Below are positions 1-37,361 of a stretch of 64,000 bases of DNA, one piece after another; the stretch's first letter is position 1, and each line of letters begins with the position of its first letter. The stretch spans positions 480,001-544,000 of the forward strand of contig CP084166.1 of NCBI GenBank assembly GCA_021513695.1. Reading direction: 5' to 3'. The notes beneath the pieces are model-generated. The model saw only the letters and a list, made by a program, of their open reading frames with translations, was not told where the DNA came from and did no database searches. Source of the DNA: Candidatus Heimdallarchaeum aukensis. Lineage in GTDB: Archaea; Asgardarchaeota; Heimdallarchaeia; Heimdallarchaeales; Heimdallarchaeaceae. Both the position numbers and the translations under genes were made by a program.

Positions 1-503
1 TATTGAAAGGATACTTTGCTATGTGGCTGTCACAGTATCTATCTTACAATTTTGGAAATAATGACCCTTGGAGCATTTGCTTTGCAGGTATTTTTGCTAT
101 ACTTGGACATAATTGGCCAATATGGTTATTAAGTCATGGTGGAAGAGGAGTAGCAACAACTCTTGGTAATTTGATGTTTTTCAATCCTATCTTCTTTTTA
201 ATATGGCTAGCAACGTTTTTCTTACTCAGTTTTCCTCTTATGTATTCAGCTATCGTTTACATCACTAGTTTTATAGTTATGGGAGTTATTCTATACTTCT
301 GGCCCTGGTATGTAAGTCCGATGGTAACAGAACTGAAAAACGACCCCAATCTAGGTTTTTTATCAATGATAATGCTTTTCGGTATAACTCTTGTTGTTCT
401 TTCGCGTCAAAAATCTAATTTCATGAAAATAAAGAATGGTGAAGCAAAAAGAATGAAATTATGGAAAATATTCCAAGGAAAGGCAGATGAAGCCTTAAAA
501 TAA
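1..503 (+). CDS. plsY: Glycerol-3-phosphate acyltransferase PlsY, C-terminal part (5' end lies before the window).
   Basis: Polytopic membrane protein containing LGHNWPIWLLSHGGRGVATTLG, which matches the conserved PlsY motif (E. coli YgiH: [22 protein letters not shown]). The ORF is open at the window start. Confidence 0.55.
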   Translation, partial: LKGYFAMWLSQYLSYNFGNNDPWSICFAGIFAILGHNWPIWLLSHGGRGVATTLGNLMFFNPIFFLIWLATFFLLSFPLMYSAIVYITSFIVMGVILYFWPWYVSPMVTELKNDPNLGFLSMIMLFGITLVVLSRQKSNFMKIKNGEAKRMKLWKIFQGKADEALK

Positions 504-541
504 ATTCTTTCTTTCTTTTTCTATCTTTTTAACAATTTTTT

Positions 542-1288
542 CTATTTTAGTTCTATTAATTCAGAGGATTCTATTTCTAGCGAAAGAGTCTCTTTTTCAT
601 TTTGTATCTTTAAAAGTCCATTATCCTCAATTCCTTCTACTGTATATTCTTGATTTTTGTAGATAATATTATTTTTGCACAATATATCATAAGAATTAAA
701 TTCCTTCAAGATTTCTTTAAGATTGTTTTTTAGAACCTTGATAATATAGTTTTTAATTTGCTTATGCAATTCTTTTGTTAATTTCTCATTATCTACTTTT
801 ATTTTCAAGGATTCATTTATTGAAATAGCTATAGAATTGACTGGAGAGTCTAAAGAAAGAACTTTGTTATTTGTATTTATTCCTATTCCAACGAGTAGAA
901 AATTACAATTTGTATCTTTCACTGTATCAATTAAAATTCCGCCTAACTTTCTTTTTTCTAGAATTATATCATTTGGCCATTTAATTTTAACAGGTATAGA
1001 CAGAATTGTTTCTATTGCTTTTCTTACTCCTAAAGCAATAGAATAATGAAGAAAAGCATATTGTTTTTGATTTATTTCTTCTTTTTTACAAAAAACAAAC
1101 GTTCCCCACCAACCTCCTTTTGGAGAAAACCATTTACTCTGTTTTCTTCCAATACTTGCAGATTGTTCCTCTGCTATTATTAACAAATCTTCATTTTTTG
1201 CTAATTCTAAATAAGACAAAGCTACATTTTGAGTGGAAGGAACAGATTGAAAATGAATGATTTTCAAGGAAAAGGATTCTTGAGCCAT
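542..1288 (-). CDS. birA: Biotin--[acetyl-CoA-carboxylase] ligase (BirA-like biotin protein ligase).
   Basis: GRKQSKWFSPKGGWWGTFVF matches the BirA GRGRRGRxWxSPxG biotin-binding loop. 248 aa. Sits next to the carboxylase genes. Confidence 0.7.
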   Translation of the reverse strand: MAQESFSLKIIHFQSVPSTQNVALSYLELAKNEDLLIIAEEQSASIGRKQSKWFSPKGGWWGTFVFCKKEEINQKQYAFLHYSIALGVRKAIETILSIPVKIKWPNDIILEKRKLGGILIDTVKDTNCNFLLVGIGINTNNKVLSLDSPVNSIAISINESLKIKVDNEKLTKELHKQIKNYIIKVLKNNLKEILKEFNSYDILCKNNIIYKNQEYTVEGIEDNGLLKIQNEKETLSLEIESSELIELK

Positions 1289-1401
1289 TATTTTCGTCGA
1301 AAAACACTTTTATTTAAACTTTTTTTTGTTTTATCAAGATAAAATTATTTAATCATAAAAACAAATTGGGTTTTTAAAAGACCTTTTTTTCTTTAAACTT
1401 A

Positions 1402-2976
1402 ATGGCTCGTATTACTCATATTGGACATGATAAAGGAATTTTGGAAGAAAAAAGACAAACAATACTTTCACTAAGAGAAAAGTCTCTAAAAGGTGGGGGA
1501 GAGGAAAAAATAGCCAGTCAACACAATAAAGGAAAGCTTACTGCGAGAGAGAGAATAGAATTATTGGTTGACGAAAATTCTTTTTGCGAAATAGATCAAA
1601 TAAGAAAATCTCAACATTCTGAATTAGAAATGGAAAAAATAGAAGGAGACGGTGTAGTAACAGGTTATGCAACTATTAATGGTAGACGAGTCTTTATTTA
1701 TAGTCAAGATTTTACCGTTTTGGGAGGAAGTTTAGGAAAAACTCACGCAAAAAAAATTTGTAAAGTTATGGATCTTGCTCTTCAGAGTGGGTGTCCTATA
1801 ATAGGGTTACTTGACTCTGGAGGAGCAAGAATTCAAGAAGGAATAGATTCTCTAGCTGGTTATGGTGAAATATTTTATAGAAATGTAATGAGTTCAGGGG
1901 TAATTCCCCAAGTTTCTATTATTTTGGGTCCTTGTGCTGGAGGAGCGGTCTATTCTCCTGCCCTAACTGATTTTATTATTATGAATCAAATTAATTCATT
2001 TATGTTTGTTACTGGCCCTCAAGTTGTTAAGACAGTTACCGGTGAAGATGTTTCATTCTATGATTTAGGAGGAAGTGAAGTACATAGTTCACTTAGCGGA
2101 GTAAGTCATTTAGTAGGAGAAGATGAAGAGGAAACGATAAATTTAGCTAAGAGACTCTTATCTTACCTTCCATCGAACAATTTAGATGACCCTCCACAAG
2201 AAATAGATGATATCGAAGAAAATGATCAAGATATTCTTTCTGATATTATTCCTGAGCAGGAAAATGAACCTTATGATATGAAAAAAGTAGTTGAAACAGT
2301 TTTAGACCAAGACAGTTTCTTTGAATTACAAGAAAATTGGGCAAAAAACATTATTGTTGGTTTCGGAAGATTAGAAGGTTTAACTGTCGGTATTATTGCA
2401 AACCAACCTTTATTTCTTGGAGGAGCTATAGAATATAATGCTGCGGATAAAGCAGCAAGATTTATTCGTTTTTGTGATTCATTTAACATCCCTATAATTA
2501 CTTTTGTTGATGTACCTGGTTTTATGCCAGGATTAAAACAAGAGGAAGAAGGAATAATTCGTCATGGAGCTAAAATGCTTTTTGCTTATTCAGAAGCTAC
2601 TGTCCCAAAACTTGCAGTAATAACAAGAAAAGCTTATGGAGGAGCTTATATTGTTATGAGCTCAAAGCATTTAGGAGCTGATATTAATTTTGCTTGGCCT
2701 ACAGCAGAAATAGCTGTCATGGGGGCAGAGGGAGCTTGTAATATTATTTATAGAAAAGAACTGAAAAAAGCTGAAAATCCAGAACAAGCTTTGCAAGATT
2801 TTGTTGTAAAATACAAAAAACAGTTCAGCAATCCTATTCGAGCAGCTGAGAAAGGATATGTTGACAAAGTTATTTTGCCTGAAGAAACAAGAATTGAACT
2901 TTCTAATGCCTTGAAATTTTTACAAAATAAAAGGATAGATACCCCGAAAAGAAAACACGGGAATATTCCACTTTAA
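1402..2976 (+). CDS. pccB: Acyl-CoA carboxylase carboxyltransferase (beta) subunit, PccB/AccD5/methylmalonyl-CoA decarboxylase-alpha family.
   Basis: 524 aa. The N-terminus MARITHIGHDKGILEEKRQTILSLREKSLKGGGEEKIASQHNKGKLTARERIELLVDENSF is the canonical propionyl-CoA carboxylase beta start. Two crotonase-fold CT halves are present (GGSLGKTHAKKICK..., ...ITFVDVPGFMPG...). Confidence 0.85.
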   Translation: MARITHIGHDKGILEEKRQTILSLREKSLKGGGEEKIASQHNKGKLTARERIELLVDENSFCEIDQIRKSQHSELEMEKIEGDGVVTGYATINGRRVFIYSQDFTVLGGSLGKTHAKKICKVMDLALQSGCPIIGLLDSGGARIQEGIDSLAGYGEIFYRNVMSSGVIPQVSIILGPCAGGAVYSPALTDFIIMNQINSFMFVTGPQVVKTVTGEDVSFYDLGGSEVHSSLSGVSHLVGEDEEETINLAKRLLSYLPSNNLDDPPQEIDDIEENDQDILSDIIPEQENEPYDMKKVVETVLDQDSFFELQENWAKNIIVGFGRLEGLTVGIIANQPLFLGGAIEYNAADKAARFIRFCDSFNIPIITFVDVPGFMPGLKQEEEGIIRHGAKMLFAYSEATVPKLAVITRKAYGGAYIVMSSKHLGADINFAWPTAEIAVMGAEGACNIIYRKELKKAENPEQALQDFVVKYKKQFSNPIRAAEKGYVDKVILPEETRIELSNALKFLQNKRIDTPKRKHGNIPL

Positions 2977-2997: not shown

Positions 2998-5900
2998 ATG
3001 AAAACTCTAAAAGAACTAAAAAATGAACTACAAATTAAATATCCAATTTTTGGATATAATCCTATCGGACTTGCTGATCCCACGTTAGCTATTGAAATCT
3101 CCAAACTTGGAGGAGTGGGATTAATTAACACTATTGGACTTGAACAAGAAGAACTAACTAAGATTCTTGATCAATGCGAACTTAATCTACCCACACAACT
3201 ATGGGGAATAAGGATTAACGATCTTTCTCACATTAAATGGATTAATCATGAACGAAGTATTCCAATCGTTATCCTACCGGAGAAACCTACAAGATTACAA
3301 CTGGATAAACTGCGTAAAATAAGTAAATTTATTGTCGCTGAAGTTTTATTTGTTGAAGAAGCAAAAAGTCATCTTGAATGGTCAGATTTCTTTTTAGTTA
3401 AAGGTATTGAAGCAGGAGGAAAAGTTGGTACAAAAGCTTCTTTTATTCAGATTCAAGAGTTTTATGAAACTGGATGGCCTTTTATCATTCAAGGAGGAAT
3501 GGGTGCTTTTAATATTAGTTCTGCTCTAATAGGAGGAGCAATAGGAGTAGTTTTTGAGGGACAATTATATCAATTTCCTGAATGTCCTCTTTCTGAAGAA
3601 GCGAAAAAGTATCTTGCTTCTTTAGGTGAAAATGATTCTTTCATTATCAATGAAAGTGGTAAAGAAGGTTACAGAATTTCTGGAAAACTAGCTAACAAAG
3701 CAATTAGAGAAATAAAACAACTAGAAGAAGAATCAAGTGAGGAAAAAATACTTGATAGAATTACTGAATTTGAAAAACCTCACGATCAATTTGGTTTTAA
3801 GAGTCAGAACATTAAACACGCATTTTTACCACTAGGTAACGATGTTTTCTTCTCCACATTCTTCAAGAAAAGATTTGGAAATTTAACAAATTTTGTGGAG
3901 CAAGCTCTTAAGATAGCTGATGAACAAATACAGATTGCTCTAAGAAATTGGCCTTTTGCAAAAGGTTCTACTTTATCCAACTTTCTAGGTACAAAATATC
4001 CTATTATTCAAGGCCCTATGGCTAATGTTTCTGATAATGTAGACTTTGCTATTAATGTAGCGAAAAATGGAGCTCTTCCTTTCTTAGCTTTGGGTGGATT
4101 ACTAAAAGAAGAAACTGAGGAGCTTTTTGATAAAGTTAGAGAAAGTGAACTTGTAAAATATTCCTATGGTTGTGGGATTATAGGTTTAGAAGCAGTTAAA
4201 CAAAGGAGAGAAGAGCACCTTTCTTTAATGAGAGATCTTAAACCTCCCTTTGCTTTGATTGCTGCTGGAACAGTTAATTTAGCTAAACAAGTACAAGAAA
4301 TGGGTTTTAAGACTTTATTACACACTCCCGCTCTATCAATGTTTAAAGATTCTATCAAAAATGGAATAGATTTACAAATTTTAGAAGGGAGTGAATGTGG
4401 AGGACATATTGGACTTCTTTCATCTTTTATTTTATGGGAAAGTATTTTGGAATTTTTAGATGAAAATAGAGAACAGATAGAAAAACCTTTGAAAATAGCT
4501 TTTGCAGGAGGGATATCTGACGGCACTAGTTCTGCGATGCTAGCAGTTATGATTGCTAAACATCTAGATATTATAGAATCAGCAATACAGATGGGTACAT
4601 CCTACTTATTTACTGAAGAGATTCTAGAAACAAAGGCTTTAACTGGATTTTATCAAGAACTTCTTCTTAATTCTAACTACACCAGAATTATAGGCTCAAC
4701 AGTAAATACTCGAGCACGAGCTGCTCCTTCACCTTTTGTAGATCAAACAATTAAAAGAGAAAGAGAGAGAATTAGACAAAAAATACCAATAAAAGAAAGA
4801 AAAGAACTTTACGAGAAAGATAATCTAGGAGCTTTAAGAATTGCAGCTAAAGCTGAAAAATGGAATAACGATCATGTTCCTGGTACTGCAACTACACAGT
4901 TTATAAAAATCGATGAAGAGGAACAGAAAAACTTTGGTTGCTTTATGGCTGGAGAAGTAATAGCAAAGAAACGTAGTATTTACAAGATAGATGACCTACA
5001 CTATGATATTTCAGTAATTGGAAAAGAAATCTTAGAAAAGCAATCAACTTCTATTGCTGATTATTTACTTTCAAAAGAAAAACTAGAAGCTTATGTTTCT
5101 AAAGAACAAAGTCCTCTAGTTATAGATAGTACTAATAAAATTGCTATAGTAGGAATAGGTAGTTTCTTCCCTGATGCTCCAAACACAGAAAAATTCTGGG
5201 AAAATATTGTTAACAAACATTATGCTGTAACTGAAGTACCTATTGAAAGATGGGATCCTAAATATTATTATGACGAAGATCGAACCGCTCCAGACAAGAC
5301 TTATACCAAAATTGGAGCGTTTGTAAAAGAATTTAAATTTAAACCTATTCAATTCAAGATTCCTCCTAAAGTAGCTGAAAAGATGGATGAAGTTCAGAAA
5401 TGGTCATTAATTGCTGCAAAAGAAGCTTTAGAAGATGCTGGAATACCCACAGATGGCAAGAAACGCCTACCTATAGGAGTAATTGTAGGCAATGCTTTAG
5501 GTGGAGAAAATCAGAGAATTACTAACAGGAGATTACACTATCCAGAAATTGAAGAACAACTAAAAATTTTATTAAGCTCAAAATTGTCTGATGAGGAAGT
5601 AGAAAAGTTTGTTTCTTCTTTCAAGAAAGAATATCTCAGTAAATACGCAGAGATTACAGAGGATACTATGCCTGGAGAATTATCTAATGTTGTTGCGGGA
5701 AGAATAGCCAATATATTCAATTTATCTGGTAAATCAATGACAACAGATGCTGCATGTGCTTCTTCTCTTGCTGCTCTGGACATTGCGGTAAAAAGTTTGT
5801 TGAATAACGATTTTGATACTATTCTTGTTGGCGGAGCAGATAGATCTATGGATGTTTCTTCTTATGTTAAATTCAGTAAGATCGGTGCTCTTTCTGCAAC

Positions 5901-7518
5901 TGGTTCTCGACCTTTTGATTCCAAGGCAGACGGTTTTGTAATGGGAGAAGGATGTGGTTTTCTTGTCTTGAAGAAATTGAAAAAAGCTATTGAAGACAAT
6001 GACAAAATTTATGCCATAATTGATTCTGTTGGTTCTTCCTCTGATGGTAAAGGAAAAGGAATTACTGCTCCTAATCCTTTAGGACAAAAAGAAGCTATTG
6101 AAAGAGCTCTTGAACAAGCTAAAGTTTCTCCTTCTGAGATAGATTTAATTGAAGCACATGGAACTTCCACCATAGTAGGAGATAAAACAGAAGTTCAAGT
6201 TTTAAATGAGATTTTCACAGAAAAACAAAAAGAAAGAAAAAGGAAAATAGCTCTTGGTTCAATTAAAAGCCAAATTGGTCATTTAAAGAGCGCAGCAGGT
6301 ATAGCTTCTGTTATAAAAGTAGCTTTAGCTCTTGACAAGAAAATTCTTCCACCAACGATAAATGTTCAAGAACTTAATCCTGCGATTGATTGGAATAATT
6401 CTAATCTTTTTGTTAATCTTGATGCTCAACCATGGGAAAAGGTTGATAACTCTATCAGAAGAGCAGGAGTTTCTGCTTTTGGTTTTGGAGGAACAAATTA
6501 TCATACAATCTTGGAAGAATATATTCCAGAAGCACAGTACATAGAAAAAGAAAAGCAACCAATAGTTGAACTAAAAGAACAAAAAGAAGAAGTTTGCTTC
6601 CTTTATACTGGACAAGGAAGTCAATATTTAGGCATGATAAAGGAACTTTATGATAATTATCCAACTGTTAGAAAAACAATAGATGAAGCTTCAGTTATTG
6701 CTAAAGAGAGTTTAAATGCTGATTTGCGTGAAATAATTTTTGGTTCACCTCAACTTTCCAAAGTTGAAAATGAGGAAAGATTAAGACAAACAGAATACAC
6801 TCAACCTTCTCTCTTTGTAGTCGAAGTTGCTTTAACTAGATTATTGAAAGAAAAAGGAATTGAGCCTACAAGAGTAGCTGGACATAGTTTAGGAGAATAT
6901 ACTGCTTTAGTTGCTGCGGGAGTGTTCTCTTTTGAAGATGGATTAAAAGCTGTAATAGAAAGAGGAAAAGCGATGGCAAAAGCTTCTAAAAGTATCCCTG
7001 GAGCAATGGCAGCTATTCTTACATCTCAAGAAAAAGTTAAGGAAATTATAGAAAAGGTAAATGAAGGTTATATAACAGTAGCCAATTATAACTCATTAAA
7101 CCAAACAGTGATTTCGGGAGAAGAAAAAGCTGTAAACAAAGCTATAGAACTTTTCTCTGCAAGAAAAATAAAAGCAATAAAATTAAATGTTTCAACAGCT
7201 TTTCATTCTATTATTGTTAAAGATGCAGAAATAGAAATGGAGAGAGTGCTTAACAGCCTGACTTACAATAAACCTTCAATTCCTGTCTATTCAAATGTAA
7301 CGGGAAGTTTGTACCCTGACAAACCCTCTAAAATTAAAGAACTTCTAATTAATCAGCTCTGTAATTCTGTTCAATGGGTTAAGATTTCAGAAATGGTCAT
7401 TAATTGCTGCAAAAGAAGCTTTAGAAGATGCTGGAATACCCACAGATGGCAAGAAACGCCTACCTATAGGAGTAATTGTAGGCAATGCTTTAGGTGGAGA
7501 AAATCAGAGAATTACTAA
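2998..7518 (+). CDS. PKS/FAS-like megasynthase, 5' segment: FMN-dependent enoyl reductase (nitronate monooxygenase/FabK/PfaD-like) - ketosynthase (KS) - acyltransferase (AT). The last ~45 codons are out of frame because of the 1993-bp tandem duplication.
   Basis: ER: YPIIQGPMANVSD...ALPFLALGG...GSECGGHIG (about 3990-4700), preceded by a degenerate NPD-like half. KS (about 5140-6520): IAIVGIGSFFPDAPNTEKFWENI, active-site TDAACASSLAAL, EAHGTSTIVGDKTE, GSIKSQIGHLKSAAG. AT (6590 onward): GQGSQ, GHSLGEYTA, TAFHS (malonyl-type). The frame breaks at 7385/7386 and the tail VINCCKRSF... is nonsense. Confidence 0.8.
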   Translation: MKTLKELKNELQIKYPIFGYNPIGLADPTLAIEISKLGGVGLINTIGLEQEELTKILDQCELNLPTQLWGIRINDLSHIKWINHERSIPIVILPEKPTRLQLDKLRKISKFIVAEVLFVEEAKSHLEWSDFFLVKGIEAGGKVGTKASFIQIQEFYETGWPFIIQGGMGAFNISSALIGGAIGVVFEGQLYQFPECPLSEEAKKYLASLGENDSFIINESGKEGYRISGKLANKAIREIKQLEEESSEEKILDRITEFEKPHDQFGFKSQNIKHAFLPLGNDVFFSTFFKKRFGNLTNFVEQALKIADEQIQIALRNWPFAKGSTLSNFLGTKYPIIQGPMANVSDNVDFAINVAKNGALPFLALGGLLKEETEELFDKVRESELVKYSYGCGIIGLEAVKQRREEHLSLMRDLKPPFALIAAGTVNLAKQVQEMGFKTLLHTPALSMFKDSIKNGIDLQILEGSECGGHIGLLSSFILWESILEFLDENREQIEKPLKIAFAGGISDGTSSAMLAVMIAKHLDIIESAIQMGTSYLFTEEILETKALTGFYQELLLNSNYTRIIGSTVNTRARAAPSPFVDQTIKRERERIRQKIPIKERKELYEKDNLGALRIAAKAEKWNNDHVPGTATTQFIKIDEEEQKNFGCFMAGEVIAKKRSIYKIDDLHYDISVIGKEILEKQSTSIADYLLSKEKLEAYVSKEQSPLVIDSTNKIAIVGIGSFFPDAPNTEKFWENIVNKHYAVTEVPIERWDPKYYYDEDRTAPDKTYTKIGAFVKEFKFKPIQFKIPPKVAEKMDEVQKWSLIAAKEALEDAGIPTDGKKRLPIGVIVGNALGGENQRITNRRLHYPEIEEQLKILLSSKLSDEEVEKFVSSFKKEYLSKYAEITEDTMPGELSNVVAGRIANIFNLSGKSMTTDAACASSLAALDIAVKSLLNNDFDTILVGGADRSMDVSSYVKFSKIGALSATGSRPFDSKADGFVMGEGCGFLVLKKLKKAIEDNDKIYAIIDSVGSSSDGKGKGITAPNPLGQKEAIERALEQAKVSPSEIDLIEAHGTSTIVGDKTEVQVLNEIFTEKQKERKRKIALGSIKSQIGHLKSAAGIASVIKVALALDKKILPPTINVQELNPAIDWNNSNLFVNLDAQPWEKVDNSIRRAGVSAFGFGGTNYHTILEEYIPEAQYIEKEKQPIVELKEQKEEVCFLYTGQGSQYLGMIKELYDNYPTVRKTIDEASVIAKESLNADLREIIFGSPQLSKVENEERLRQTEYTQPSLFVVEVALTRLLKEKGIEPTRVAGHSLGEYTALVAAGVFSFEDGLKAVIERGKAMAKASKSIPGAMAAILTSQEKVKEIIEKVNEGYITVANYNSLNQTVISGEEKAVNKAIELFSARKIKAIKLNVSTAFHSIIVKDAEIEMERVLNSLTYNKPSIPVYSNVTGSLYPDKPSKIKELLINQLCNSVQWVKISEMVINCCKRSFRRCWNTHRWQETPTYRSNCRQCFRWRKSENY

Positions 7519-22223: not shown

Positions 22224-22327
22224 ATAACTTAAAAAGCTTGAATTGTTTATTTCGTCATCATCAATTACTTCATTTATTGATGCTAAAGCAAATTTAGCCC
22301 TATCGTTATCTGATAAAAACTCCAGAT

Positions 22328-30910: not shown

Positions 30911-33541
30911 GTGAGGTTCACAGCAGCAAATAAAATATTATTGTCTCTTTTATTCAATGATTGTGTTCATATGTCTAATTCCCATCAATATAATGTTAGC
31001 TATTATGCTACACAGCGTGGAATAGCTGAAAGTACAGGTATTCCTCTGACAAATATCCCTAGAACCCTAAAAATGTTAATTAAAAAAGGATTTGTAGAAC
31101 AAAGTATGGGGTATACAAAAGATGCAATAAGAAGAAGAAAAGTGTATTTTCTCACAGAAATTGGAAAAAAAATGGCACAAAACCTTTACCATGAGCTATT
31201 AGAGCAAGAAATTACAATAATTAATAAACACGGTAAGAGTGAATTACATCCATTTAATGAAGTAGCGAAATTATATAATGTAGACGTTATAAAGATACTT
31301 AGAAATTTGGATTTGCAAGGAAATATTATGCTGGAAGAGCTTGTTCAAAATAACAATGAGGCTAATAAAGTTTATTTTCTTAATTATACACCAGAAGAGA
31401 ATTTTTTTTTCGGAAGAAAGGAAGAATTAGAAAAAATCAGAAGATTTATTGAACACGAACACAAAAAAGTTATAGCTGTATACGGTATTGCAGGTATAGG
31501 AAAGACCTCGTTGATATTAAAAATAATGCAGAATTATAGAAAGAATTACAATATTTTTTATTATAGATTACACGAGTGGGACAGCTTACGAAGTGTGTTA
31601 ACTTCATTATCTGACTTTTTAAGTAGGCTTGGAAAGAAAAGTTTGAGAAAATATTTGAATAATAACAGACCTTGCCTTGATGAAGTTCAAGCAATATTAA
31701 GAAAAGAATTAATGAACGTTAATTCTCTGTTGGTAATCGACGAAGTTCAAAACATTGCGAGCGATGAAATAGTTGATTTACTAAAATATCTTATAATAAT
31801 CTTTTGTGCTGAAATTGAGAATTCAATCCTTATTTTCGCCAGTAGAAAGAGGGTTAATTTCTACTCAATGAAACATACTCTAAAACGAAGCATCGGAGAA
31901 ATTGTTTTGAATGGGCTGGATAGGGAATCAAGTAATAAAATAATTGAGAAGAATATAAATATAAGAAACTTTGAGGAAATTTATAATATTACACAGGGAC
32001 ATCCCCTTGCTCTTAGATTCATAAGTAATTGCAATACGTTAAAGAAAGGAGAAAAAAACATCCTGAATTATGCATTCAATGAAATATATGACAATCTCTC
32101 ACCAAAAGAGAAAGAATTGTTATTTTTTCTCTATACATGTCGATATCCAGTGACAACTCAAATGCTTTTAGATAATAACTTTTCTTATGAAACTTTCCAA
32201 AGACTCTATAACAAAAGCTTTTGTTTTAAAACAGTTTTAGGTAATGTGCAACTACATTATATCCTTCGCAGCTTCCTTCACAAGCTTTTCTCACATAGTA
32301 TATCAGAAAACACGCAAATAGTAACTAACATAAAGATTGCAGAATATTATAGAAAAAATAAAACACCCTTGAACATTATTGCTGCTATATATCATTATTT
32401 TCATGCAAAAGAACACGAACAAGCTATAAAGCTAGCGATTCAATATGAGGATCTAATTATCGAAAATGGTTATTCTCAAGAGTTGATAGATATTTTAGAA
32501 ACGTTTGAAAAAGATATTATTTTAAAAGAAGATTGGAAGAGTATACTACAACTCAAAGGTAACGCGTATAATGCAATAGGAAAAATAAATTATGCGTTAA
32601 ATTTATACTTACAAGTCTTGGAATTATGCAAGAATACAGAAAAACCAGAAATAGAGCTTTTATTGGAAATAGGAAAATTGTATTTGAAAAAAAACGCATT
32701 TGATATTGCTTTAGATAAATATATCGAATGTTTAAGAAATGCAAAAGAAAGTGATAATAAAGAGAACATTGCTTATAGTTACTATTATATAGGAAAAACC
32801 TACTGGAAAAAAGGAAATCTTAAAAAATCGATTAGATGTTTGAAGAAAGCTCTTAGGTTCAGTAATCAAACCAACAATCTACACCTTAAAGGAAAAATCT
32901 ACATGGATTTTGCGATGGTATATTCTCTCAGAGCAATGTGGCAACAAGCAATAAATAGTTCTCTTCTAAGTCTTGAATTATTAGAAAGAACAGGCAATTA
33001 CTATGAGATAAGTAAGGCGTATAATAATATTGGAGTAATCTATTCCTCTAGGGGAGATTATGAGAAAGCAATTTATTACTACGAAAAACAATTAAGATGT
33101 GCAGAGAAATACGACTTTATACGAACAAAAGTTTATGCTTTTTGTAATATTGCATGGGCAATTGCTAATAAAAATAATGTATCTAAACAAGAGTTAGAGA
33201 AAGCAATAGGTTTATGCTCACAAGCTTTTGATATCTCACGACATCTTAAGGATGATAGGATAACAGCAGGTCTCTACACAGCTTATGGTTGCTTATTTGC
33301 AAAAATGCAAAAGTGGGCAAAAGCTATCCATTACTTTAATCATGCAATCAACTACTTAGAAAAAGAGAAGGATATCCTTCTCCTTCCTCGAATATTTTTT
33401 TGGTTTGGAAAAATCTATAAAGAGAAAGGCGATATAGCCAATGCTAAGAAATATTTTAACAGAGCTTATAAATATTATAAAAGAAGAAAAAACCGAATAA
33501 GAATTAAAGAGATTGAAGTTGAATTAGAAACATGTGTTTAG
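30911..33541 (+). CDS. STAND-type P-loop NTPase with an N-terminal winged-helix (MarR/PadR-like) domain and C-terminal TPR repeats.
   Basis: Walker A GIAGIGKTSL, Walker B SLLVIDEVQN, multiple TPR-like repeats in the C-terminal 350 aa (AYNNIGVIYSSRGDYEKAIYYYEKQL etc.). The N-terminal about 90 aa looks like a transcriptional-regulator wHTH. The real start may be the ATG at 30971. Confidence 0.55.
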   Translation: MRFTAANKILLSLLFNDCVHMSNSHQYNVSYYATQRGIAESTGIPLTNIPRTLKMLIKKGFVEQSMGYTKDAIRRRKVYFLTEIGKKMAQNLYHELLEQEITIINKHGKSELHPFNEVAKLYNVDVIKILRNLDLQGNIMLEELVQNNNEANKVYFLNYTPEENFFFGRKEELEKIRRFIEHEHKKVIAVYGIAGIGKTSLILKIMQNYRKNYNIFYYRLHEWDSLRSVLTSLSDFLSRLGKKSLRKYLNNNRPCLDEVQAILRKELMNVNSLLVIDEVQNIASDEIVDLLKYLIIIFCAEIENSILIFASRKRVNFYSMKHTLKRSIGEIVLNGLDRESSNKIIEKNINIRNFEEIYNITQGHPLALRFISNCNTLKKGEKNILNYAFNEIYDNLSPKEKELLFFLYTCRYPVTTQMLLDNNFSYETFQRLYNKSFCFKTVLGNVQLHYILRSFLHKLFSHSISENTQIVTNIKIAEYYRKNKTPLNIIAAIYHYFHAKEHEQAIKLAIQYEDLIIENGYSQELIDILETFEKDIILKEDWKSILQLKGNAYNAIGKINYALNLYLQVLELCKNTEKPEIELLLEIGKLYLKKNAFDIALDKYIECLRNAKESDNKENIAYSYYYIGKTYWKKGNLKKSIRCLKKALRFSNQTNNLHLKGKIYMDFAMVYSLRAMWQQAINSSLLSLELLERTGNYYEISKAYNNIGVIYSSRGDYEKAIYYYEKQLRCAEKYDFIRTKVYAFCNIAWAIANKNNVSKQELEKAIGLCSQAFDISRHLKDDRITAGLYTAYGCLFAKMQKWAKAIHYFNHAINYLEKEKDILLLPRIFFWFGKIYKEKGDIANAKKYFNRAYKYYKRRKNRIRIKEIEVELETCV

Positions 33542-33562
33542 TTTAACTTTTGTAAGTTATTT

Positions 33563-33838
33563 ATGCAATTTTCATTGTTTACTTACACAAACAAGTTGAT
33601 ATTAACAAAAGATAAGCAATTATATTCTCTGTTAAAGAGGACTGGAATACGTAGCGAATATATGGAGCTACCTAAATCAAGAGAAATAGCCAATAAAATT
33701 AAAATAACATACAATCAGTTTTCATATCTTGCTCGAGAATTGTTAGTATTATCTCCTTATTTAATAATAGAAGTAGATAATAAATCAATAGTACTAACAA
33801 TGAATTGGTTTGGACATGAAAAAGAAAAAATGGTATAG
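33563..33838 (+). CDS. Small hypothetical protein.
   Basis: 91-aa ORF in AT-rich context. No recognisable motif. Confidence 0.2.
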   Translation: MQFSLFTYTNKLILTKDKQLYSLLKRTGIRSEYMELPKSREIANKIKITYNQFSYLARELLVLSPYLIIEVDNKSIVLTMNWFGHEKEKMV

Positions 33839-33932
33839 AGGAGTAAAACGCTACAACAAAAATTGATGGTAAAGTTAGACATTTGTGTATTAAATGAAAT
33901 AAATATACTTATACAATATGAGCTATTGCGAT

Positions 33933-34301
33933 TTATAATTCTTCTAATTCATATTCTGTAACTTCTTTTTTAAATTCTTCTTCAGTTAATAGTACAACAT
34001 CAAAATCTAAATCTTCTATTTTCATATTAATAACATTGTATGAACTACCAATTTCAATATGAGCTTTAGGAAACCCATACTTGAGATTGGATGCAATCAT
34101 AGGATAAATATTCTTTTTAGGAGGATCTCCTGCAACAGTAAATATGATGTCTAAATCACTCTTATTACGATGATTCCCTCTTCTTCTTGAACCAGCTCTT
34201 GCTATTCCACTAACTCTAAGTCCAGTATTGTTTTTTATGAAATTTCCAATACTTCTCCACAACTTTGCATATCTCTGTTCAAATTCAGGTCTTTCAGCCA
34301 C
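33933..34301 (-). CDS. Minimal nucleotidyltransferase (MNT, Pol-beta superfamily). No cognate HEPN partner is visible.
   Basis: GSRRRGNHRNKSDLDI matches the GSxxxGxxxxxSDxD NTase motif. 122 aa. Confidence 0.6.
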   Translation of the reverse strand: MAERPEFEQRYAKLWRSIGNFIKNNTGLRVSGIARAGSRRRGNHRNKSDLDIIFTVAGDPPKKNIYPMIASNLKYGFPKAHIEIGSSYNVINMKIEDLDFDVVLLTEEEFKKEVTEYELEEL

Positions 34302-34531
34302 AAGCTAAATTATTACTTAAAATATAAAAACATTTTTTCTTTTTTTCTTTAATTATTCTTAAAAATTTTTATTTTGAATTTCAAATTATTTTTTCAATTT
34401 GAATAAGAGCGTTCAAAAATTAATTTTTATTAATGTGAGGGTTTATGTTGGAATTATGACTTACTTTCAGATCAAGATCCCCACAAAGTAAGAGAATTCA
34501 TAATCATTATGAACCTTTCCTTAAGAAACTG

Positions 34532-35229
34532 GTGGATGAGAAAACGAGAGAAAGCAAAAAAGGAAGAAAAAGAATAGCAAAAAGATGGGTGATTCTGGCT
34601 TTAGCGATTATTGCTAGAATAGACGGGATAGCTTGGAGGAAGTTAGAAGAAAAGTTGTCTCTATGTGATTTTTTGATAGAAGAGGGGTGGATGAGGAAGA
34701 TTCCTTCTAAATCTACTTTTCATGCTGTATGGAGAGCAACAGAAAGTAAAATCTTAGAGCAGTGGATAATAGATTTAGGGGGAGAAATAGTGAGAAAAAA
34801 AGGGTTGAAAGCTATGGCGGTGGACAGTTCAGGGTTTAAAATCCATCAAGCTTCTGTTTGGCGTTTTCTCAAATGGTCAAGAGGGACACTAAAGAAAACC
34901 TCTAAACTAAACTTCTCTTGAAGATACACCTTATAGCTGGTTTACCCTCCAGAGCTATAGTCTCTCTAGCACATTCTGCTAGTAACACTCACGATAGTAA
35001 AGTCTTCGGTTTGTTATGGCAAAAACTTCCTTCTGCACTCTTAAGACCGCTCTTGAGATTCTATGGTGACTGCGCCCACTGGACAGAAAATATCGTCGGT
35101 CTTCTTAGCCAACATTCCTTTTTTCCTGTTATTCCCCCAAAAAGTAATGCTCGTTATCCCTCTCCTCCTCCCCTTGGACCAATAGTTCAAGCTCATCGTC
35201 TCTACCCTGTTCTCTATCGTTTATCATAA
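34532..35229 (+). mobile_element. Decayed IS4/IS5-family DDE transposase remnant (two frameshifted ORFs) in a locally GC-rich stretch.
   Basis: ORF1 carries the IPSKSTFHAVWR N-terminal motif of IS5-like transposases. ORF2 carries KIHLIAGLPSRAIVSLAHSASNTHDS (cf. HLxVDxxGLPLxxxxTxANxHD), with the first catalytic Asp lost. GC content of about 34.9-35.4 kb is clearly higher than its surroundings. Confidence 0.5.
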
Positions 35230-35861
35230 TCACCACCCCGAGTATCGTAGTAGTATTGAACACGTCTTTGGTCTCCTCAAACTCTCTCTTCCCCCAATCC
35301 TTGATCGCTTACCCTCTACCATTCTCTCTACTCTTTATAGTTCTCTCCTCTGTTACAACTACCTTTTATTCCTTCGGACCGTTTAGCAGGTGAAAAAGAA
35401 TTTTTGGACATGCTTTTTGAATTAAATTTATCAATTCCTTATTGTCAAGAAAATCATTCTTAATGGAAAAAAATCTAAACAATTTTCATAGTTTGTTTCT
35501 CCAGCAATTATATCCTCTTTTAAAGGTTAGTAAAATAAAAAAAGCAATATCGCTTTCTGCACTTTAAAAAGTTTTATTCCACTCCTTATTTTCGAAGAAT
35601 TCAGTCATAATATTCTTAATTTATTCAGTTCTTGTTAAATAAAAAAAACAATAAAAATAGAATCACATCATTTCTTGAAGTTACAACTAACTTTTGGCGC
35701 ATAATAATTATAGATTAAAATACAAAAAGTTTGCTCAGAATTTGGGACTTTGAATGTTAAAATCATTATTCACTCTAGTTCGATTAGACTTTTGTAAAAA
35801 AAACATACAATAATAAAAAAAAATTTATTTTGATTTGAGAAAAATCCAATTCTCGTCTCAA

Positions 35862-37361
35862 TTATATATTTCTCGTTTGCTCAAGTTTACTTCTTTGTTT
35901 CCACAAATTAAGTATTCTTCGCTGTTTTTCTGATATTGTTTCAGTTTTTACTCTTTTTATTGCTCCTATCTTTTCATAAAAAGCATATAGTGCTGCCACT
36001 TTTATTTCCTCATTTTCTTCTATTTTTTCTTTGATTGAAGCTTTTTCTATAAAGTCTGTTGAAACTATTCTTTCTTGGAATTCTTTTGTTTCAAGTATAG
36101 TTTTATGGAAATCTATGTTGGTTGTAATCCCACTAATTGTTAATTCTTTAAAAGCTAACCTTGCTCTTTCTATTGCGTCGTTTCTTGTTTTTCCCCATAC
36201 AATTAGTTTTCCTAAAAGAGAGTCATATTCATTTGACACATTGTAAGATGAAAAAACAAAAGTATCAAATCTTACATGATATATACTTGGAGCTATTAAT
36301 TGTTCAATTTTTCCTGATTTAGGTAAGAAGGTTTTTGGGTCTTCAGCATTTATTCTAAATTCAATTGCACTTCCATTTATTTTTATTTCATCTTGAACAT
36401 AACTTAATTTTAATCCTCCTGCTACTCTGATTTGTTCAACTACAAGATCTATTCCAGTAACCATTTCTGTTACAGGGTGTTCTACTTGAATCCTTGGATT
36501 AACTTCATTGAAATAAATTTGTCCATCTTTGTAAAGAAATTCAGCTGTTCCAGCATTAACATATCCTAGCTCTTTAGCCATCTTACAGACTTTTTCTCCA
36601 AGTTCATTTCTTTCTTGTTCTGTCAAAAATGAAGGCGCTTCTTCTATTAGTTTCTGATGAGAACGCTGAATGCTACATTCTCTATCTCCTAAGTGGATTA
36701 CATTACCATAACTATCTCCAATGAACTGTATCTCTATGTGTCTTGGAGATTCGATGTATTTCTCTATGAAAACAGACTTATTACCAAAAAAGTTCTCTGC
36801 TACAGATTGTGCTCCTAAAAGAGAGATTTCTAAAGTTTCGGGAGAGTTGACTATTTCCATTCCTTTTCCTCCCCCTCCAAAAGCAGCTTTAATAATTATA
36901 GGATAACCTATTTTTTCTGCTACTGTCTTTGCTTCTTCCAGTGTTTCTACATATCCTTTTGAACCTGGAACAACAGGTATTCCTACTTTACTTGCTATGC
37001 TTCTTGCTTTAACTTTGTCTCCTAGAAGGTCTATTACCTCTGGAGAAGGACCAATGAAAACAATCTTGCTTTTTATTACTTTTCTTGCAAATTCTGAGTT
37101 TTCAGAGAGAAAACCATAACCTGGATGTATAGCATCACATTTAGCTTTTTTGGCTATTTTTATTATTTTATCAATGTTAAGATAAGTTTCATTAACTGAA
37201 CCAGAACCAATACAATAAGCTTCATCTGCTAGTTTAACGTGTAATGACTGAGAATCGACTACGGTAAAGATAGCTACAGTTTTGATATTCATAAGTTTAC
37301 AAGCACGAATGATTCTAACAGCTATCTCTCCTCTATTTGCAATAAGTATCTTCTTAAGCAT
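35862..37361 (-). CDS. accC: Biotin carboxylase subunit of acetyl/propionyl-CoA carboxylase (ATP-grasp).
   Basis: MLKKILIANRGEIAVRIIRAC... is the canonical AccC start. ATP-grasp motifs include a glycine-rich loop, EMNPR-like NPRIQVEHPVTE and a C-terminal biotin-carboxylase domain. The longer N-terminus in the ORF track (MKLYFF...) is probably spurious. Confidence 0.85.
   Translation of the reverse strand: MLKKILIANRGEIAVRIIRACKLMNIKTVAIFTVVDSQSLHVKLADEAYCIGSGSVNETYLNIDKIIKIAKKAKCDAIHPGYGFLSENSEFARKVIKSKIVFIGPSPEVIDLLGDKVKARSIASKVGIPVVPGSKGYVETLEEAKTVAEKIGYPIIIKAAFGGGGKGMEIVNSPETLEISLLGAQSVAENFFGNKSVFIEKYIESPRHIEIQFIGDSYGNVIHLGDRECSIQRSHQKLIEEAPSFLTEQERNELGEKVCKMAKELGYVNAGTAEFLYKDGQIYFNEVNPRIQVEHPVTEMVTGIDLVVEQIRVAGGLKLSYVQDEIKINGSAIEFRINAEDPKTFLPKSGKIEQLIAPSIYHVRFDTFVFSSYNVSNEYDSLLGKLIVWGKTRNDAIERARLAFKELTISGITTNIDFHKTILETKEFQERIVSTDFIEKASIKEKIEENEEIKVAALYAFYEKIGAIKRVKTETISEKQRRILNLWKQRSKLEQTRNI

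What the first reader, a model, noticed from the sequence alone, without database searches (positions are those of the whole stretch)
1..37361. Complete biotin-dependent acyl-CoA carboxylase toolkit plus BirA and PlsY, physically split by the megasynthase and the CRISPR/mobile island
Five genes sit in about 37 kb: PlsY (acyl-phosphate:G3P acyltransferase, an ester-lipid enzyme), BirA, the CT beta subunit (1402-2976), BCCP (16347-16838, with its frame-broken duplicate) and biotin carboxylase (35862-37361, opposite strand). Together they would supply malonyl-CoA to the adjacent KS/AT machinery and channel acyl chains into glycerol-3-phosphate esters, which is a bacterial-type membrane-lipid route. 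The 19.7-35.8 kb defence and IS block appears to have been inserted between accB and accC.
Basis: partly seen in the sequence, partly recalled or inferred. Interest (0 to 1): 0.6.

Follow-up and report, generated by a model that had tools for sequence, protein, structure and literature searches.

The report
Asgard fatty-acid synthase cluster with carboxylase
An archaeon closely related to eukaryotes carries a tight gene cluster with a giant fatty-acid/polyketide synthase, its own malonyl-CoA-making carboxylase and a biotin ligase; in this strain a recently inserted defence island splits the cluster, and the link to membrane-lipid assembly through the neighbouring PlsY-like gene remains unproven.

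Summary
All five genes are real. They are a PlsY-like gene (3-503, cut by the window edge), a biotin ligase (542-1288, minus strand), the carboxyltransferase (CT, 1402-2976), the biotin carrier (BCCP, 16356-16838) and the biotin carboxylase (BC, 35862-37361, minus strand).

The window is the deposited genome of Candidatus Heimdallarchaeum aukensis, which belongs to Heimdallarchaeia, not Lokiarchaeia.

Removing a 1993-bp perfect tandem duplication, which three independent sequences lack, restores one 3515-aa megasynthase. Its domain order is ER-KS-AT-KS'-ACP3-KR-DH-PPTase.

The order biotin ligase, CT, megasynthase, hydrolase, BCCP, BC recurs in Heimdall-, Loki- and Thor-group contigs. The carboxylase is therefore most likely a dedicated malonyl-CoA supply for the synthase.

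Relatives at 94-98% nucleotide identity place BC directly after BCCP. This confirms that about 16.3 kb of array-less type III-B cas genes and other genes was inserted between them.

PlsY sits next to the cluster only within the genus Heimdallarchaeum. The protein has the PlsY fold but an altered donor-site motif, and a published analysis reports that PlsC is absent. The proposed bacterial-type membrane-lipid route therefore remains speculative.

I rate this a new variant of a known kind, with moderately high interest.

The parts
3..503 (+). 3' two-thirds of a PlsY-like acyltransferase gene. The full gene is 242 aa and its first 76 codons lie upstream of the window.
   Evidence: PF02660 at E 3.7e-18. 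The full-length copy on the identical contig L001 scores 117.7 bits. TIGR00023 scores 124.4, below the 137.2 cut-off. An AF2 model (pLDDT 92.8) matches only PlsY structures 5XJ5-8. dN/dS is 0.025.
542..1288 (-). Group I biotin protein ligase (BirA catalytic type, no repressor domain), divergent from the CT gene.
   Evidence: PF03099 at E 3.2e-19. TIGR00121 scores 134.4 against a cut-off of 83.1. It is conserved upstream of CT in L003, L004, L005, L007, L008 and L094.
1402..2976 (+). Acyl-CoA carboxylase carboxyltransferase subunit (PccB/AccD5/12S family).
   Evidence: PF01039 at E 1e-188. Best PDB matches are 1VRG and 1XNW at about 650 bits. It has Ile at the S. coelicolor PccB D422 position (GGAYIVM). 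It is an exact match to UJG41225.1.
2998..7385 (+). Megasynthase, first part: ER (FabK/PfaD-like, two NMO-type repeats), KS, and most of AT.
   Evidence: Pfam NMO, ketoacyl-synt and Acyl_transf_1. PfaA TIGR02813 gives 650.8 bits on KS-AT. Motifs C919, H1054, H1095, GHSLG1295 and TAFH1400 are present.
7386..9378 (+). Second copy of a 1993-bp perfect tandem duplication of 5393-7385. It breaks the megasynthase frame and is probably a scaffolding artefact.
   Evidence: The two copies are 100% identical. The duplication is absent from the read-derived contig L001 (100% identical), from L094 (98%) and from the PR6 genome (94%). Collapsing it restores a 3515-aa ORF, the same length as in PR6.
9379..15538 (+). 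Megasynthase, remainder: end of AT, FabF-like KS', three ACPs, KR, PKS-type DH, and an Sfp-type PPTase.
   Evidence: Pfam. (PfaA C-terminal region 308 bits). (KS' resembles FabF, E 2.5e-23). (motifs). dN/dS is 0.089.
15573..16334 (+). Alpha/beta hydrolase, a candidate chain-releasing thioesterase or transferase.
   Evidence: Hydrolase_4, Peptidase_S9 and BAAT_C matches. GESFG nucleophile elbow. It is conserved directly after the megasynthase in L003, L005, L006 and L009. dN/dS is 0.020.
16356..16838 (+). Biotin carboxyl carrier protein (160 aa counted from the ATG; the ORF list starts it at GTG 16347).
   Evidence: Biotin_lipoyl at E 1.1e-16. EAMKM motif. It was called as 160 aa in L009 and L010.
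17688..20388 (+). Second copy of a 2.7-kb tandem duplication of 14992-17692. It holds a PPTase fragment (17680-18234), a hydrolase copy (18270-19031), a frame-broken BCCP copy (19044-19517) and the 3' part of the full Csx1/Csm6 gene.
   Evidence: The copies are 99.9% identical. The read-derived contig L010 (2699 bp) equals exactly one repeat unit, and L001 ends at its left edge, so the assembly graph branches at both repeat ends. Each window copy differs from L010 by one single-base indel.
17074..17661 (-). Truncated Csx1/Csm6 HEPN fragment at the end of the first repeat copy.
   Evidence: PF09670 at E 1.1e-37. The sequence is identical to the 3' part of 19770-20999.
19572..35868 (.). Inserted island between BCCP and BC, about 16.3 kb net. 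Contents: Csx1/Csm6 (19770-20999), Cmr6, Cmr5, Cmr4, Cmr3, Cas10/Cmr2 and Cmr1 (21112-27569), two small ORFs, a P-domain protein (29201-30718), a STAND ATPase with TPR repeats (30911-33541), a nucleotidyltransferase (33933-34301), and frame-broken DDE transposase fragments (34532-35229). In the first repeat copy the left edge is at about 16876.
   Evidence: families. The island is absent from PR6 and from L009. By accession numbering it is also absent from the 98%-identical strain. The window holds no CRISPR array and no tRNA. No terminal repeats were found.
35862..37361 (-). Biotin carboxylase subunit (499 aa), convergent with BCCP in island-free relatives.
   Evidence: Biotin_carb_N, CPSase_L_D2 and Biotin_carb_C. 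NF006367 scores 622.7 against a cut-off of 597. It is an exact match to UJG41247.1. dN/dS is 0.040.

Best explanation
The region is a conserved Asgard-archaeal biosynthetic cluster. Its core is one 3515-aa iterative type I fatty-acid/polyketide megasynthase related to PfaA, with the domain order ER-KS-AT-KS'-ACP3-KR-DH-PPTase. The cluster brings its own malonyl-CoA supply and cofactor-loading enzymes.

Proposed mechanism (all steps inferred from family membership):
1. The group I biotin ligase biotinylates the Lys of the EAMKM motif of BCCP.
2. BC carboxylates the biotin using ATP and bicarbonate.
3. The PccB-type CT transfers the carboxyl group to acetyl-CoA to give malonyl-CoA.
4. The fused Sfp-type PPTase converts the ACPs to their holo form.
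5. The malonyl-type AT loads the ACPs.
6. KS, KR, DH and the FabK-like ER run full reduction cycles. Because no FabA-type isomerase is present, the product should be a mostly saturated or partly reduced acyl chain.
7. The downstream alpha/beta hydrolase releases or transfers the chain.

Shown here: the gene identities, intact catalytic motifs, purifying selection, conserved gene order, and the strain-level insertion of a 16.3-kb type III-B cas/STAND/IS island between BCCP and BC in Ca. H. aukensis.

Not shown: the substrate of the carboxylase, the product of the synthase, and its fate. The adjacent PlsY-like acyltransferase is a genus-specific neighbour, and its involvement is only a possibility.
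For: Gene families.

Megasynthase: a single 3515-aa ORF is restored by collapsing the duplication and matches PR6 in length. All catalytic motifs are intact.

Operon structure: the gaps CT-megasynthase, megasynthase-hydrolase and hydrolase-BCCP are 21, 34 and 21 nt.

Conserved order:
- Ligase, CT, megasynthase in L003, L004, L005, L007, L008 and L094.
- CT, megasynthase, hydrolase, BCCP, BC in L006.
- Megasynthase, hydrolase, BCCP, BC in L003, L005 and L009.
- These come from Heimdall-, Prometh/Loki- and Thor-labelled assemblies.
- Four further CT hits share contig lengths with megasynthase hits.

Substrate hints: the CT has Ile where PccB has D422, and the AT has GHSLG and TAFH.

Selection: dN/dS is 0.02-0.09 for CT, megasynthase, hydrolase, BCCP and BC.

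Contrast with bacteria: the one bacterial homologue cluster examined has no carboxylase genes nearby. This fits a dedicated supply in a host that has no other fatty-acid synthase.

Island: it is absent in relatives.
Against: - No biochemical evidence exists. PccB-family carboxyltransferases cannot be assigned a substrate from sequence alone, and the best NCBIfam match is the mmdA subfamily, below its cut-off.
- One more distant Asgard locus (L002) has the synthase split into several genes with no carboxylase within 10 kb.
- The rest of the genome could not be searched, so this set may also be the cell's only carboxylase and serve other pathways.
- Only archaeal ether lipids have been reported from the first cultured Asgard archaeon (as cited in PMC13400652).
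- In the deposited genome the megasynthase is frame-broken. If that duplication is real, the gene is inactive in this strain.
Confidence: 0.7

Rival explanations
1. The carboxylase feeds the megasynthase, and the acyl chains are then esterified to glycerol phosphate by the adjacent PlsY, giving bacterial-type ester membrane lipids in an Asgard archaeon.
For: - PlsY-like, ligase, CT and megasynthase lie in this order in three Heimdallarchaeum-level sequences: the window/L001, L094 and PR6.
- The protein has the PlsY fold and keeps the His and GG(R/K)G motifs.
- It is under very strong purifying selection, with dN/dS 0.025.
- Bacterial PlsY accepts both glycerol-phosphate stereoisomers (PMC13400652).
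Against: - The adjacency is lost in Heimdallarchaeaceae relatives whose PlsY is 78% and 61% identical. It is also absent from every Loki-, Thor- and other Heimdall-group cluster examined.
- PlsY is a separate transcription unit, convergent with the ligase gene.
- Motif 1 is GSKNVGGRN rather than GSGNxGATN throughout the Asgard clade, and the bacterial RHxxNI motif is RQxxNF.
- TIGR00023 is below its cut-off.
- No PlsX is present in the window or upstream in PR6; the 374-aa neighbour has no family match.
- PlsC is reported absent from both Heimdallarchaeum genomes (PMC8813620).
Confidence: 0.15
2. The carboxylase is a housekeeping acyl-CoA (propionyl-CoA) carboxylase for central carbon metabolism or CO2 fixation, and its position around the megasynthase is incidental.
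For: - The CT is most similar to enzymes named propionyl-CoA carboxylase or methylmalonyl-CoA carboxyltransferase.
- Three-subunit carboxylases of this type serve autotrophic cycles in other archaea (established knowledge).
- Beta-oxidation genes lie next to the cluster in Loki- and Thor-group relatives.
Against: - The carboxylase genes bracket the megasynthase in every lineage where both flanks are visible. They sit in an operon-like arrangement with a biotin ligase and a PPTase.
- No 3-hydroxypropionate/4-hydroxybutyrate genes are present in the window.
- Ile at the D422-equivalent position fits acceptance of acetyl-CoA.
Confidence: 0.08
3. The cluster is bacterial DNA wrongly binned or assembled into an archaeal genome.
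For: - Outside Asgard archaea, the closest homologues of the synthase are bacterial, at about 35% identity.
- One near-identical contig is labelled Pacearchaeota in NCBI, so binning errors do occur.
Against: - The cluster lies inside the circularised 3.33-Mb Ca. H. endolithica chromosome and the 3.08-Mb H. aukensis genome.
- Its G+C content is the same low value of about 30% as its surroundings.
- It is flanked by Asgard hallmark genes, namely Arf and Ras GTPases and Nre, both here and in L006.
- Asgard homologues are about 50% identical to one another and form the top hits.
Confidence: 0.01

Closest known systems
[quoted passage not shown] The nearest are Type J (pfaD ER plus pfaA KS-MAT-ACP3-KR) and the Type R cluster of Koribacter, which carries an acetyl-CoA carboxylase gene.
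   Same: - The KS-AT and KR-DH regions score best against PfaA (TIGR02813).
- The ER is of the FabK/PfaD type.
- There are tandem ACPs with LGIDS motifs and an Sfp-type PPTase.
- The logic is iterative and malonyl-based.
- There is a precedent for a carboxylase gene inside such a cluster.
   Different: - All activities are fused in one 3515-aa polypeptide, with the ER at the N-terminus, an extra FabF-like KS' between AT and the ACPs, and the PPTase at the C-terminus.
- There is no PfaC-type KS-CLF and no FabA-type dehydratase/isomerase pair, so polyunsaturated products are unlikely.
- A complete three-subunit carboxylase and a biotin ligase belong to the cluster.
- The host is an archaeon; no archaea appear in that survey.
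Three-subunit biotin-dependent acyl-CoA carboxylases of archaea and actinobacteria (AccC/AccB/PccB of Sulfolobales; Streptomyces coelicolor PccB and AccB).
   Same: - BC, BCCP and a single-chain 12S-type CT are separate proteins.
- The CT scores about 640 bits against S. coelicolor PccB and about 635 bits against the Sulfolobus tokodaii enzyme.
- It has Ile at the PccB D422 position. This residue distinguishes the acetyl-CoA-accepting AccB from PccB (from my own knowledge of Diacovich et al. 2004, not checked here).
   Different: - The genes are not one compact acc operon. They bracket a megasynthase, and here they are further separated by 16 kb of inserted DNA.
- The neighbouring genes point to lipid or polyketide synthesis rather than autotrophy or propionate use.
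Bacterial PlsX/PlsY/PlsC phosphatidic-acid pathway.
   Same: - The protein has the PlsY fold, with a target-normalised TM-score of about 0.8 to 5XJ5-8.
- It passes the Pfam PF02660 threshold.
- The GH and GG(K/R)G motifs are conserved.
   Different: - It belongs to a divergent Asgard clade sharing about 30% identity with bacterial PlsY.
- Motif 1 is GGRN rather than GATN, RQxxNF replaces RHxxNI, and there is an extra conserved C-terminal tail.
- It falls below the TIGR00023 cut-off.
- No PlsX was seen, and PlsC is reported absent.
ACP-independent archaeal fatty-acid synthesis by ketothiolase/DUF35 complexes (bioRxiv 10.1101/2024.07.05.601840).
   Same: Both address whether archaea, including Asgard archaea, can make fatty acids.
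   Different: - That pathway is CoA-based and independent of malonyl-CoA and ACP.
[quoted passage not shown]
- The present cluster is ACP-, PPTase- and malonyl-CoA-dependent.
Myxobacterial PUFA synthases whose Pfa3 subunit carries a 1-acylglycerol-3-phosphate acyltransferase domain (recalled from Gemperlein et al. 2014; not checked here).
   Same: This is a precedent for physically coupling a Pfa-type synthase to a glycerolipid acyltransferase.
   Different: - There the acyltransferase is a PlsC-type domain fused to the synthase.
- Here it is a separate PlsY-type membrane protein, adjacent only in one genus.

Membership tests
Heteromeric biotin-dependent acyl-CoA carboxylase | Biotin carboxylase subunit with N-terminal, ATP-grasp and C-terminal domains, passing a curated family cut-off | tested here: met
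   PF00289, PF02786 and PF02785 all match. NF006367 scores 622.7 against a cut-off of 597.
Heteromeric biotin-dependent acyl-CoA carboxylase | Carrier protein with the biotinyl-lysine in an (A/V)MKM motif | tested here: met
   The Biotin_lipoyl domain matches at E 1.1e-16. EAMKM is present in both copies and in PR6.
Heteromeric biotin-dependent acyl-CoA carboxylase | Carboxyltransferase of the PccB/12S type | tested here: met
   PF01039 matches at E 1e-188 over 493/493 profile positions. Scores are 580-660 bits against solved PCC, ACC and 12S subunits.
Heteromeric biotin-dependent acyl-CoA carboxylase | Acetyl-CoA is the physiological substrate (the enzyme is an acetyl-CoA carboxylase) | tested here: inconclusive
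   Ile at the PccB D422 position and the malonyl-type AT next door fit this. Sequence alone cannot decide, and the best NCBIfam model is the mmdA subfamily, below its cut-off.
Biotin protein ligase (BirA) | Catalytic BPL domain above the curated cut-off; an N-terminal repressor domain for bifunctional BirA | tested here: met
   TIGR00121 scores 134.4 against 83.1. The protein has 248 aa and no HTH domain, so it is a group I ligase rather than the bifunctional repressor form.
PlsY (acyl-phosphate:glycerol-3-phosphate acyltransferase) | Pfam PF02660 membership and the multi-helix membrane PlsY fold | tested here: met
   117.7 bits against a cut-off of 24.1. The AF2 model has pLDDT 92.8. Only PlsY chains 5XJ5-8 match, with probability 1.00 and target TM 0.78-0.81.
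PlsY (acyl-phosphate:glycerol-3-phosphate acyltransferase) | Equivalog-level score (TIGR00023) | tested here: not met
   124.4 bits against a cut-off of 137.2.
PlsY (acyl-phosphate:glycerol-3-phosphate acyltransferase) | Motif 1 G-S-G-N-x-G-A-T-N, the phosphate-binding loop for acyl-phosphate | tested here: not met
   The sequence is GSKNVGGRN. The Ala-Thr to Gly-Arg change is conserved through both Asgard subclades, while the bacterial members in the same alignment mostly keep GATN.
PlsY (acyl-phosphate:glycerol-3-phosphate acyltransferase) | Partner enzymes PlsX (acyl-phosphate supply) and PlsC (second acylation) | not testable with these tools
   Neither is in the window or within the stretch seen upstream in PR6. 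PlsC is reported absent from both Heimdallarchaeum genomes (PMC8813620). The whole genome could not be searched.
PUFA (Pfa) synthase | PfaA-type KS-MAT-tandem ACP-KR-DH | tested here: inconclusive
   TIGR02813 is the best model for both halves (650.8 and 308.2 bits) but stays below its 1010 whole-protein cut-off. An extra KS' sits between AT and the ACPs.
PUFA (Pfa) synthase | PfaC-type KS-CLF with tandem FabA-like dehydratase/isomerase domains | tested here: not met
   No FabA-type domain is present in the megasynthase or the window. The only DH is PKS-type (PF21089/PF14765). KS' retains its Cys and so is not a CLF.
PUFA (Pfa) synthase | PfaD-type FMN enoyl reductase and PfaE-type PPTase | tested here: met
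   NMO/FabK-like ER. Sfp-type PPTase domain with GIDIE and WTAKES. Both are fused to the synthase.
Type III-B CRISPR-Cas locus (the inserted island) | Cmr1-6 with Cas10/Cmr2 and an ancillary CARF-HEPN nuclease | tested here: met
   Cmr3, Cas10/Cmr2, Cmr5 and RAMPs by Pfam. Cmr1, Cmr4, Cmr6 and Csx1/Csm6 by PADLOC.
Type III-B CRISPR-Cas locus (the inserted island) | Adjacent CRISPR array | tested here: not met
   No repeat array exists anywhere in the 64-kb window. The genome paper lists one array-free operon.

The most novel reading that the evidence does not exclude
Asgard archaea of at least three classes maintain a self-sufficient fatty-acid synthase that depends on ACP and malonyl-CoA and carries its own carboxylase, biotin ligase and PPTase. 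In Heimdallarchaeum its acyl chains would be handed to a divergent PlsY-type acyltransferase to make ester-linked glycerolipids. That would be a host-side route towards bacterial or eukaryote-type membrane lipids in the archaeal lineage closest to eukaryotes.
Probability: 0.15. Interest if true: 0.9.

Novelty: new variant of a known kind. Interest (0 to 1): 0.62.

Why it matters
How a eukaryote with bacterial-type fatty-acid ester lipids arose from an archaeal host with isoprenoid ether lipids is an open question. [quoted passage not shown]

This cluster is a counter-example on paper. It encodes a complete KS/AT/ACP/KR/DH/ER enzyme with its own PPTase, malonyl-CoA supply and biotin ligase. It is conserved and under purifying selection in Heimdall-, Loki- and Thor-group genomes.

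[quoted passage not shown] The carboxylase linkage was not described there.

The cluster turns the question 'can Asgard archaea make fatty acids, and what do they do with them?' into a direct experiment: express one gene plus three carboxylase genes.

On the practical side, the deposited Ca. H. aukensis genome probably misrepresents this gene as two fragments.

Tried and rejected
- A homologue search with the full 3515-aa protein timed out. I repeated it with residues 1-1200.
- The metagenome scan with the PlsY alignment was swamped by ordinary bacterial PlsY, because the derived patterns also covered the bacterial motif. Only L012-L014 were Asgard-type, and these were too short or carried no cluster genes.
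- The single-sequence AlphaFold model of the alpha/beta hydrolase was unusable (pLDDT 33), so no fold search was run on it. Its role as a thioesterase rests only on family matches and position.
- The search for terminal direct or inverted repeats, or a tRNA target, at the island ends found nothing convincing.
- The sigma-70 promoter/terminator scan gave fewer hits than shuffled sequence and does not apply to an archaeon.
- The genome paper's supplements contain no PlsX, PlsY, PlsC or carboxylase entries.
- I considered bacterial contamination, a 3-hydroxypropionate/4-hydroxybutyrate role for the carboxylase, and a true polyunsaturated-fatty-acid synthase. I reject contamination and the PUFA synthase, and give the housekeeping-carboxylase role (including 3HP/4HB) low credence; the reasons are in the rival explanations and membership tests.
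- I considered that PlsY and the cluster are an ancient linked pair. I rejected this because PlsY has other neighbours in relatives at 78% and 61% identity.

Full report
**What is in the window**

The 37-kb stretch has about 30% G+C. Along it lie the following genes:
- a PlsY-family ORF cut by the window edge (3-503)
- a biotin protein ligase on the minus strand (542-1288)
- a PccB-type carboxyltransferase, CT (1402-2976)
- two very large ORFs with polyketide/fatty-acid synthase domains (2998-7518 and 7577-15538)
- an alpha/beta hydrolase (15573-16334)
- a biotin carboxyl carrier protein, BCCP (16347-16838)
- a repeated block
- type III-B cas genes and other genes
- a biotin carboxylase, BC, on the minus strand (35862-37361/37442)

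The ligase passes the curated TIGR00121 cut-off and BC passes NF006367. BCCP has the EAMKM biotinylation motif, and its likely start is the ATG at 16356.

**Source organism**

The CT, the BC and the 1506-aa N-terminal synthase fragment are exact matches to UJG41225.1, UJG41247.1 and UJG41226.1 of Candidatus Heimdallarchaeum aukensis, on a 3,081,793-bp record. The full PlsY is 100% identical to that species' protein. Arf- and Ras-family GTPases and Nre further along the window fit an Asgard archaeon.

**Two tandem duplications**

A self-comparison shows two tandem duplications: 5393-7385 = 7386-9378 (1993 bp, 100% identical) and 14992-17692 against 17688-20388 (2.7 kb, 99.9%).

The first is not a multiple of three and is what splits the synthase into two ORFs. 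It is absent from three independent sequences:
- a contig assembled from run SRR15988954 that is otherwise 100% identical to the window
- a 98%-identical metagenome contig, L094
- the circular genome of Ca. H. endolithica PR6, 94% identical

Removing one copy restores a single 3515-aa ORF, exactly the length found in PR6. The H. aukensis genome was built from SPAdes contigs scaffolded with LRScaf using Nanopore reads from amplified DNA (PMC8813620). I therefore regard this duplication as a probable scaffolding artefact.

The second duplication behaves differently. The read-derived assembly contains a 2699-bp contig that is exactly one repeat unit, and the neighbouring contig ends at its left edge. 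The assembly graph therefore branches at both repeat ends, and the repeat junction is probably present in the reads. Each window copy differs from that contig by one single-base indel. One of these indels causes the frame break in the second BCCP copy. One intact copy of every gene remains in either case.

**The megasynthase**

The restored protein has this domain order:
- two NMO/FabK-like enoyl-reductase repeats
- KS
- AT
- a second, FabF-like KS that keeps its active-site Cys
- three ACPs
- KR
- a PKS-type DH
- an Sfp-type PPTase

The expected catalytic motifs are present: C919/H1054/H1095, GQGSQ, GHSLG, TAFH (malonyl-type), TGGARGI, YAFAN, HxxxGxxxxP, GIDIE and WTAKES. The one exception is that the second ACP has Thr where the phosphopantetheine Ser is expected.

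The best curated model for both the KS-AT region and the KR-DH region is PfaA. There is no FabA-type dehydratase/isomerase and no CLF.

**Conserved gene order**

Homologues of the first 1200 residues at about 50% identity all come from Asgard assemblies labelled Heimdall-, Prometh/Loki- or Thorarchaeota. Bacterial proteins follow at about 35% identity. Gene order around these homologues is as follows:
- In L003, L004, L007, L008, PR6 and L094, the ligase (minus strand) and CT lie immediately upstream of the synthase.
- In L003, PR6, L006 and L009, the hydrolase, BCCP and BC lie immediately downstream.
- Four further CT hits share contig lengths with synthase hits.
- One more distant locus, L002, has a split synthase and no carboxylase nearby.
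- The one bacterial homologue cluster examined has no carboxylase genes.

Within the window, the CT, synthase, hydrolase and BCCP genes are separated by only 21-34 nt.

Between H. aukensis and H. endolithica, dN/dS is 0.067 for CT, 0.089 for the synthase, 0.020 for the hydrolase, 0.066 for BCCP, 0.040 for BC and 0.24 for the ligase.

The CT has Ile at the position of S. coelicolor PccB D422. The aligned chain 1XNW carries Ile there, and from my own knowledge it is the D422I mutant. Also from my own knowledge of the Streptomyces work, that residue separates the acetyl-CoA-accepting AccB from PccB.

Together these points make a dedicated malonyl-CoA supply the best reading.

**The inserted island**

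Alignment with PR6 runs to window 16875 (19571 in the second copy) and resumes at 35869. In PR6 the BCCP and BC genes are convergent and 64 bp apart. An ENA contig at 94% identity shows the same arrangement. In a 98%-identical strain the NCBI accession numbers place BC three genes after the synthase.

The insertion is therefore a strain-level event of about 16.3 kb. It carries the following:
- Csx1/Csm6 and Cmr6 to Cmr1
- two small ORFs
- a P-domain protein
- a STAND ATPase with TPR repeats
- a nucleotidyltransferase
- frame-broken DDE transposase fragments

The window holds no CRISPR array and no tRNA, and I found no terminal repeats. The genome paper describes one array-free cas operon.

**PlsY**

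The protein passes the Pfam threshold. A high-confidence model (pLDDT 92.8) matches only the Aquifex PlsY structures. It evolves under strong constraint, with dN/dS 0.025.

Several points weaken the link to the cluster:
- It scores below the TIGR00023 equivalog cut-off.
- It belongs to an Asgard clade that shares only about 30% identity with bacterial PlsY.
- That clade has GS(K/G)NVGGRN in place of GSGNxGATN and RQxxNF in place of RHxxNI, plus a conserved C-terminal tail.
- It is next to the cluster only in Heimdallarchaeum-level sequences (window/L001, L094, PR6). In relatives whose PlsY is 78% and 61% identical, its downstream neighbours do not include the cluster (an aminotransferase gene is close by in both).
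- It is absent from the Loki-, Thor- and other Heimdall-group clusters.
- It is convergent with the ligase gene and so is not in the CT-synthase operon.
- The 374-aa gene upstream of it in PR6 has no family match and is not PlsX.
- The genome paper reports that both Heimdallarchaeum species lack PlsC.

PlsY homologues in Asgard archaea were already known (PMC6737245; PMC13400652). The step from synthase to glycerol-phosphate ester is therefore possible but unsupported beyond adjacency in one genus.

**Origin**

The closest CT relatives are about 65 Asgard clusters at 62-76% identity. Bathyarchaeia, Halobacteria, Chloroflexi and Zixibacteria follow at about 58-61%. A bacterial origin of the carboxylase is not evident from this ranking. 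The synthase itself has only bacterial relatives outside Asgard archaea, so an old transfer of the synthase followed by recruitment of a carboxylase is plausible but untested.

**Comparison with what is known**

The cluster works like a bacterial Pfa-type secondary lipid synthase cluster (PMC3098273) combined with a three-subunit archaeal/actinobacterial acyl-CoA carboxylase.

It fails a defining feature of true PUFA synthases, the PfaC KS-CLF and FabA-type dehydratases, so I do not file it as one.

It differs from the ACP-independent archaeal fatty-acid pathway reported in 2024. [quoted passage not shown]

In the searched literature I found only a brief 2020 note of a 'potentially novel PKS cluster' with PUFA-like KS domains in a Heimdallarchaeota bin (PMC7472256). 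I found nothing on the carboxylase and ligase linkage. Subscription-only literature was not searchable.

**Verdict**

I rate it a new variant of a known kind, with interest 0.62.

Noticed in passing
window 5393-9378: A 1993-bp perfect tandem duplication splits the megasynthase into UJG41226.1 and a second ORF in the deposited Ca. H. aukensis genome. Three independent sequences lack it, so it is probably a scaffolding artefact in a published 'complete' genome.
   Followed up: yes
window 9379-15538 (megasynthase residue about 2323): The second of the three ACP domains reads LGIDTVK, with Thr where the phosphopantetheine-bearing Ser is expected. This ACP may not be modified.
   Followed up: no
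window 37457-38611: Two adjacent EamA-transporter ORF fragments (37626-37874 and 37968-38453) lie between BC and TldD. PR6 has only 89 bp at this position. This is either a second small insertion or a decayed gene.
   Followed up: partly
L003 545-7319; L007 1425-7251; L008 1245-7157: In Loki- and Thor-group relatives the cluster lies directly beside beta-oxidation-type genes (thiolases, acyl-CoA dehydrogenase, ETF alpha and beta). The same is not seen in Heimdallarchaeum.
   Followed up: no
alignment A1 (PlsY homologues); window 3-503: Both Asgard PlsY subclades share GGRN instead of GATN in the phosphate-binding loop and Gln instead of His in RHxxNI. They also share a conserved basic C-terminal tail (GEAKKMKLWKIF..DEALK). 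This may mean a different acyl donor.
   Followed up: partly
window 53960-54523 and 59001-59561 (both minus strand); 44995-46233 (minus strand): Arf-family and Ras-family small GTPase genes and an archaeal Nre gene. Nre and an Arf-like gene also follow the cluster in the Heimdall-group contig L006.
   Followed up: no
window 30911-33541 and 29201-30718: Inside the island there is an 876-aa STAND/AAA ATPase with an N-terminal winged-helix domain and C-terminal TPR repeats, and a 505-aa protein with a proprotein-convertase P-domain. Neither matched a named defence system in PADLOC beyond weak hits.
   Followed up: partly
window 34532-35229 and 50614-51312: Frame-broken DDE transposase fragments lie at the right end of the island. 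A separate weak rve-type integrase ORF lies further downstream.
   Followed up: no
protein clusters: A 9.8-kb contig carrying near-identical CT and megasynthase fragments (RLG16130-RLG16132) is labelled Candidatus Pacearchaeota in NCBI. This is probably a binning or labelling error.
   Followed up: no
This suggests that two CT paralogues lie on one contig, so CT duplication occurs within this clade.
   Followed up: no
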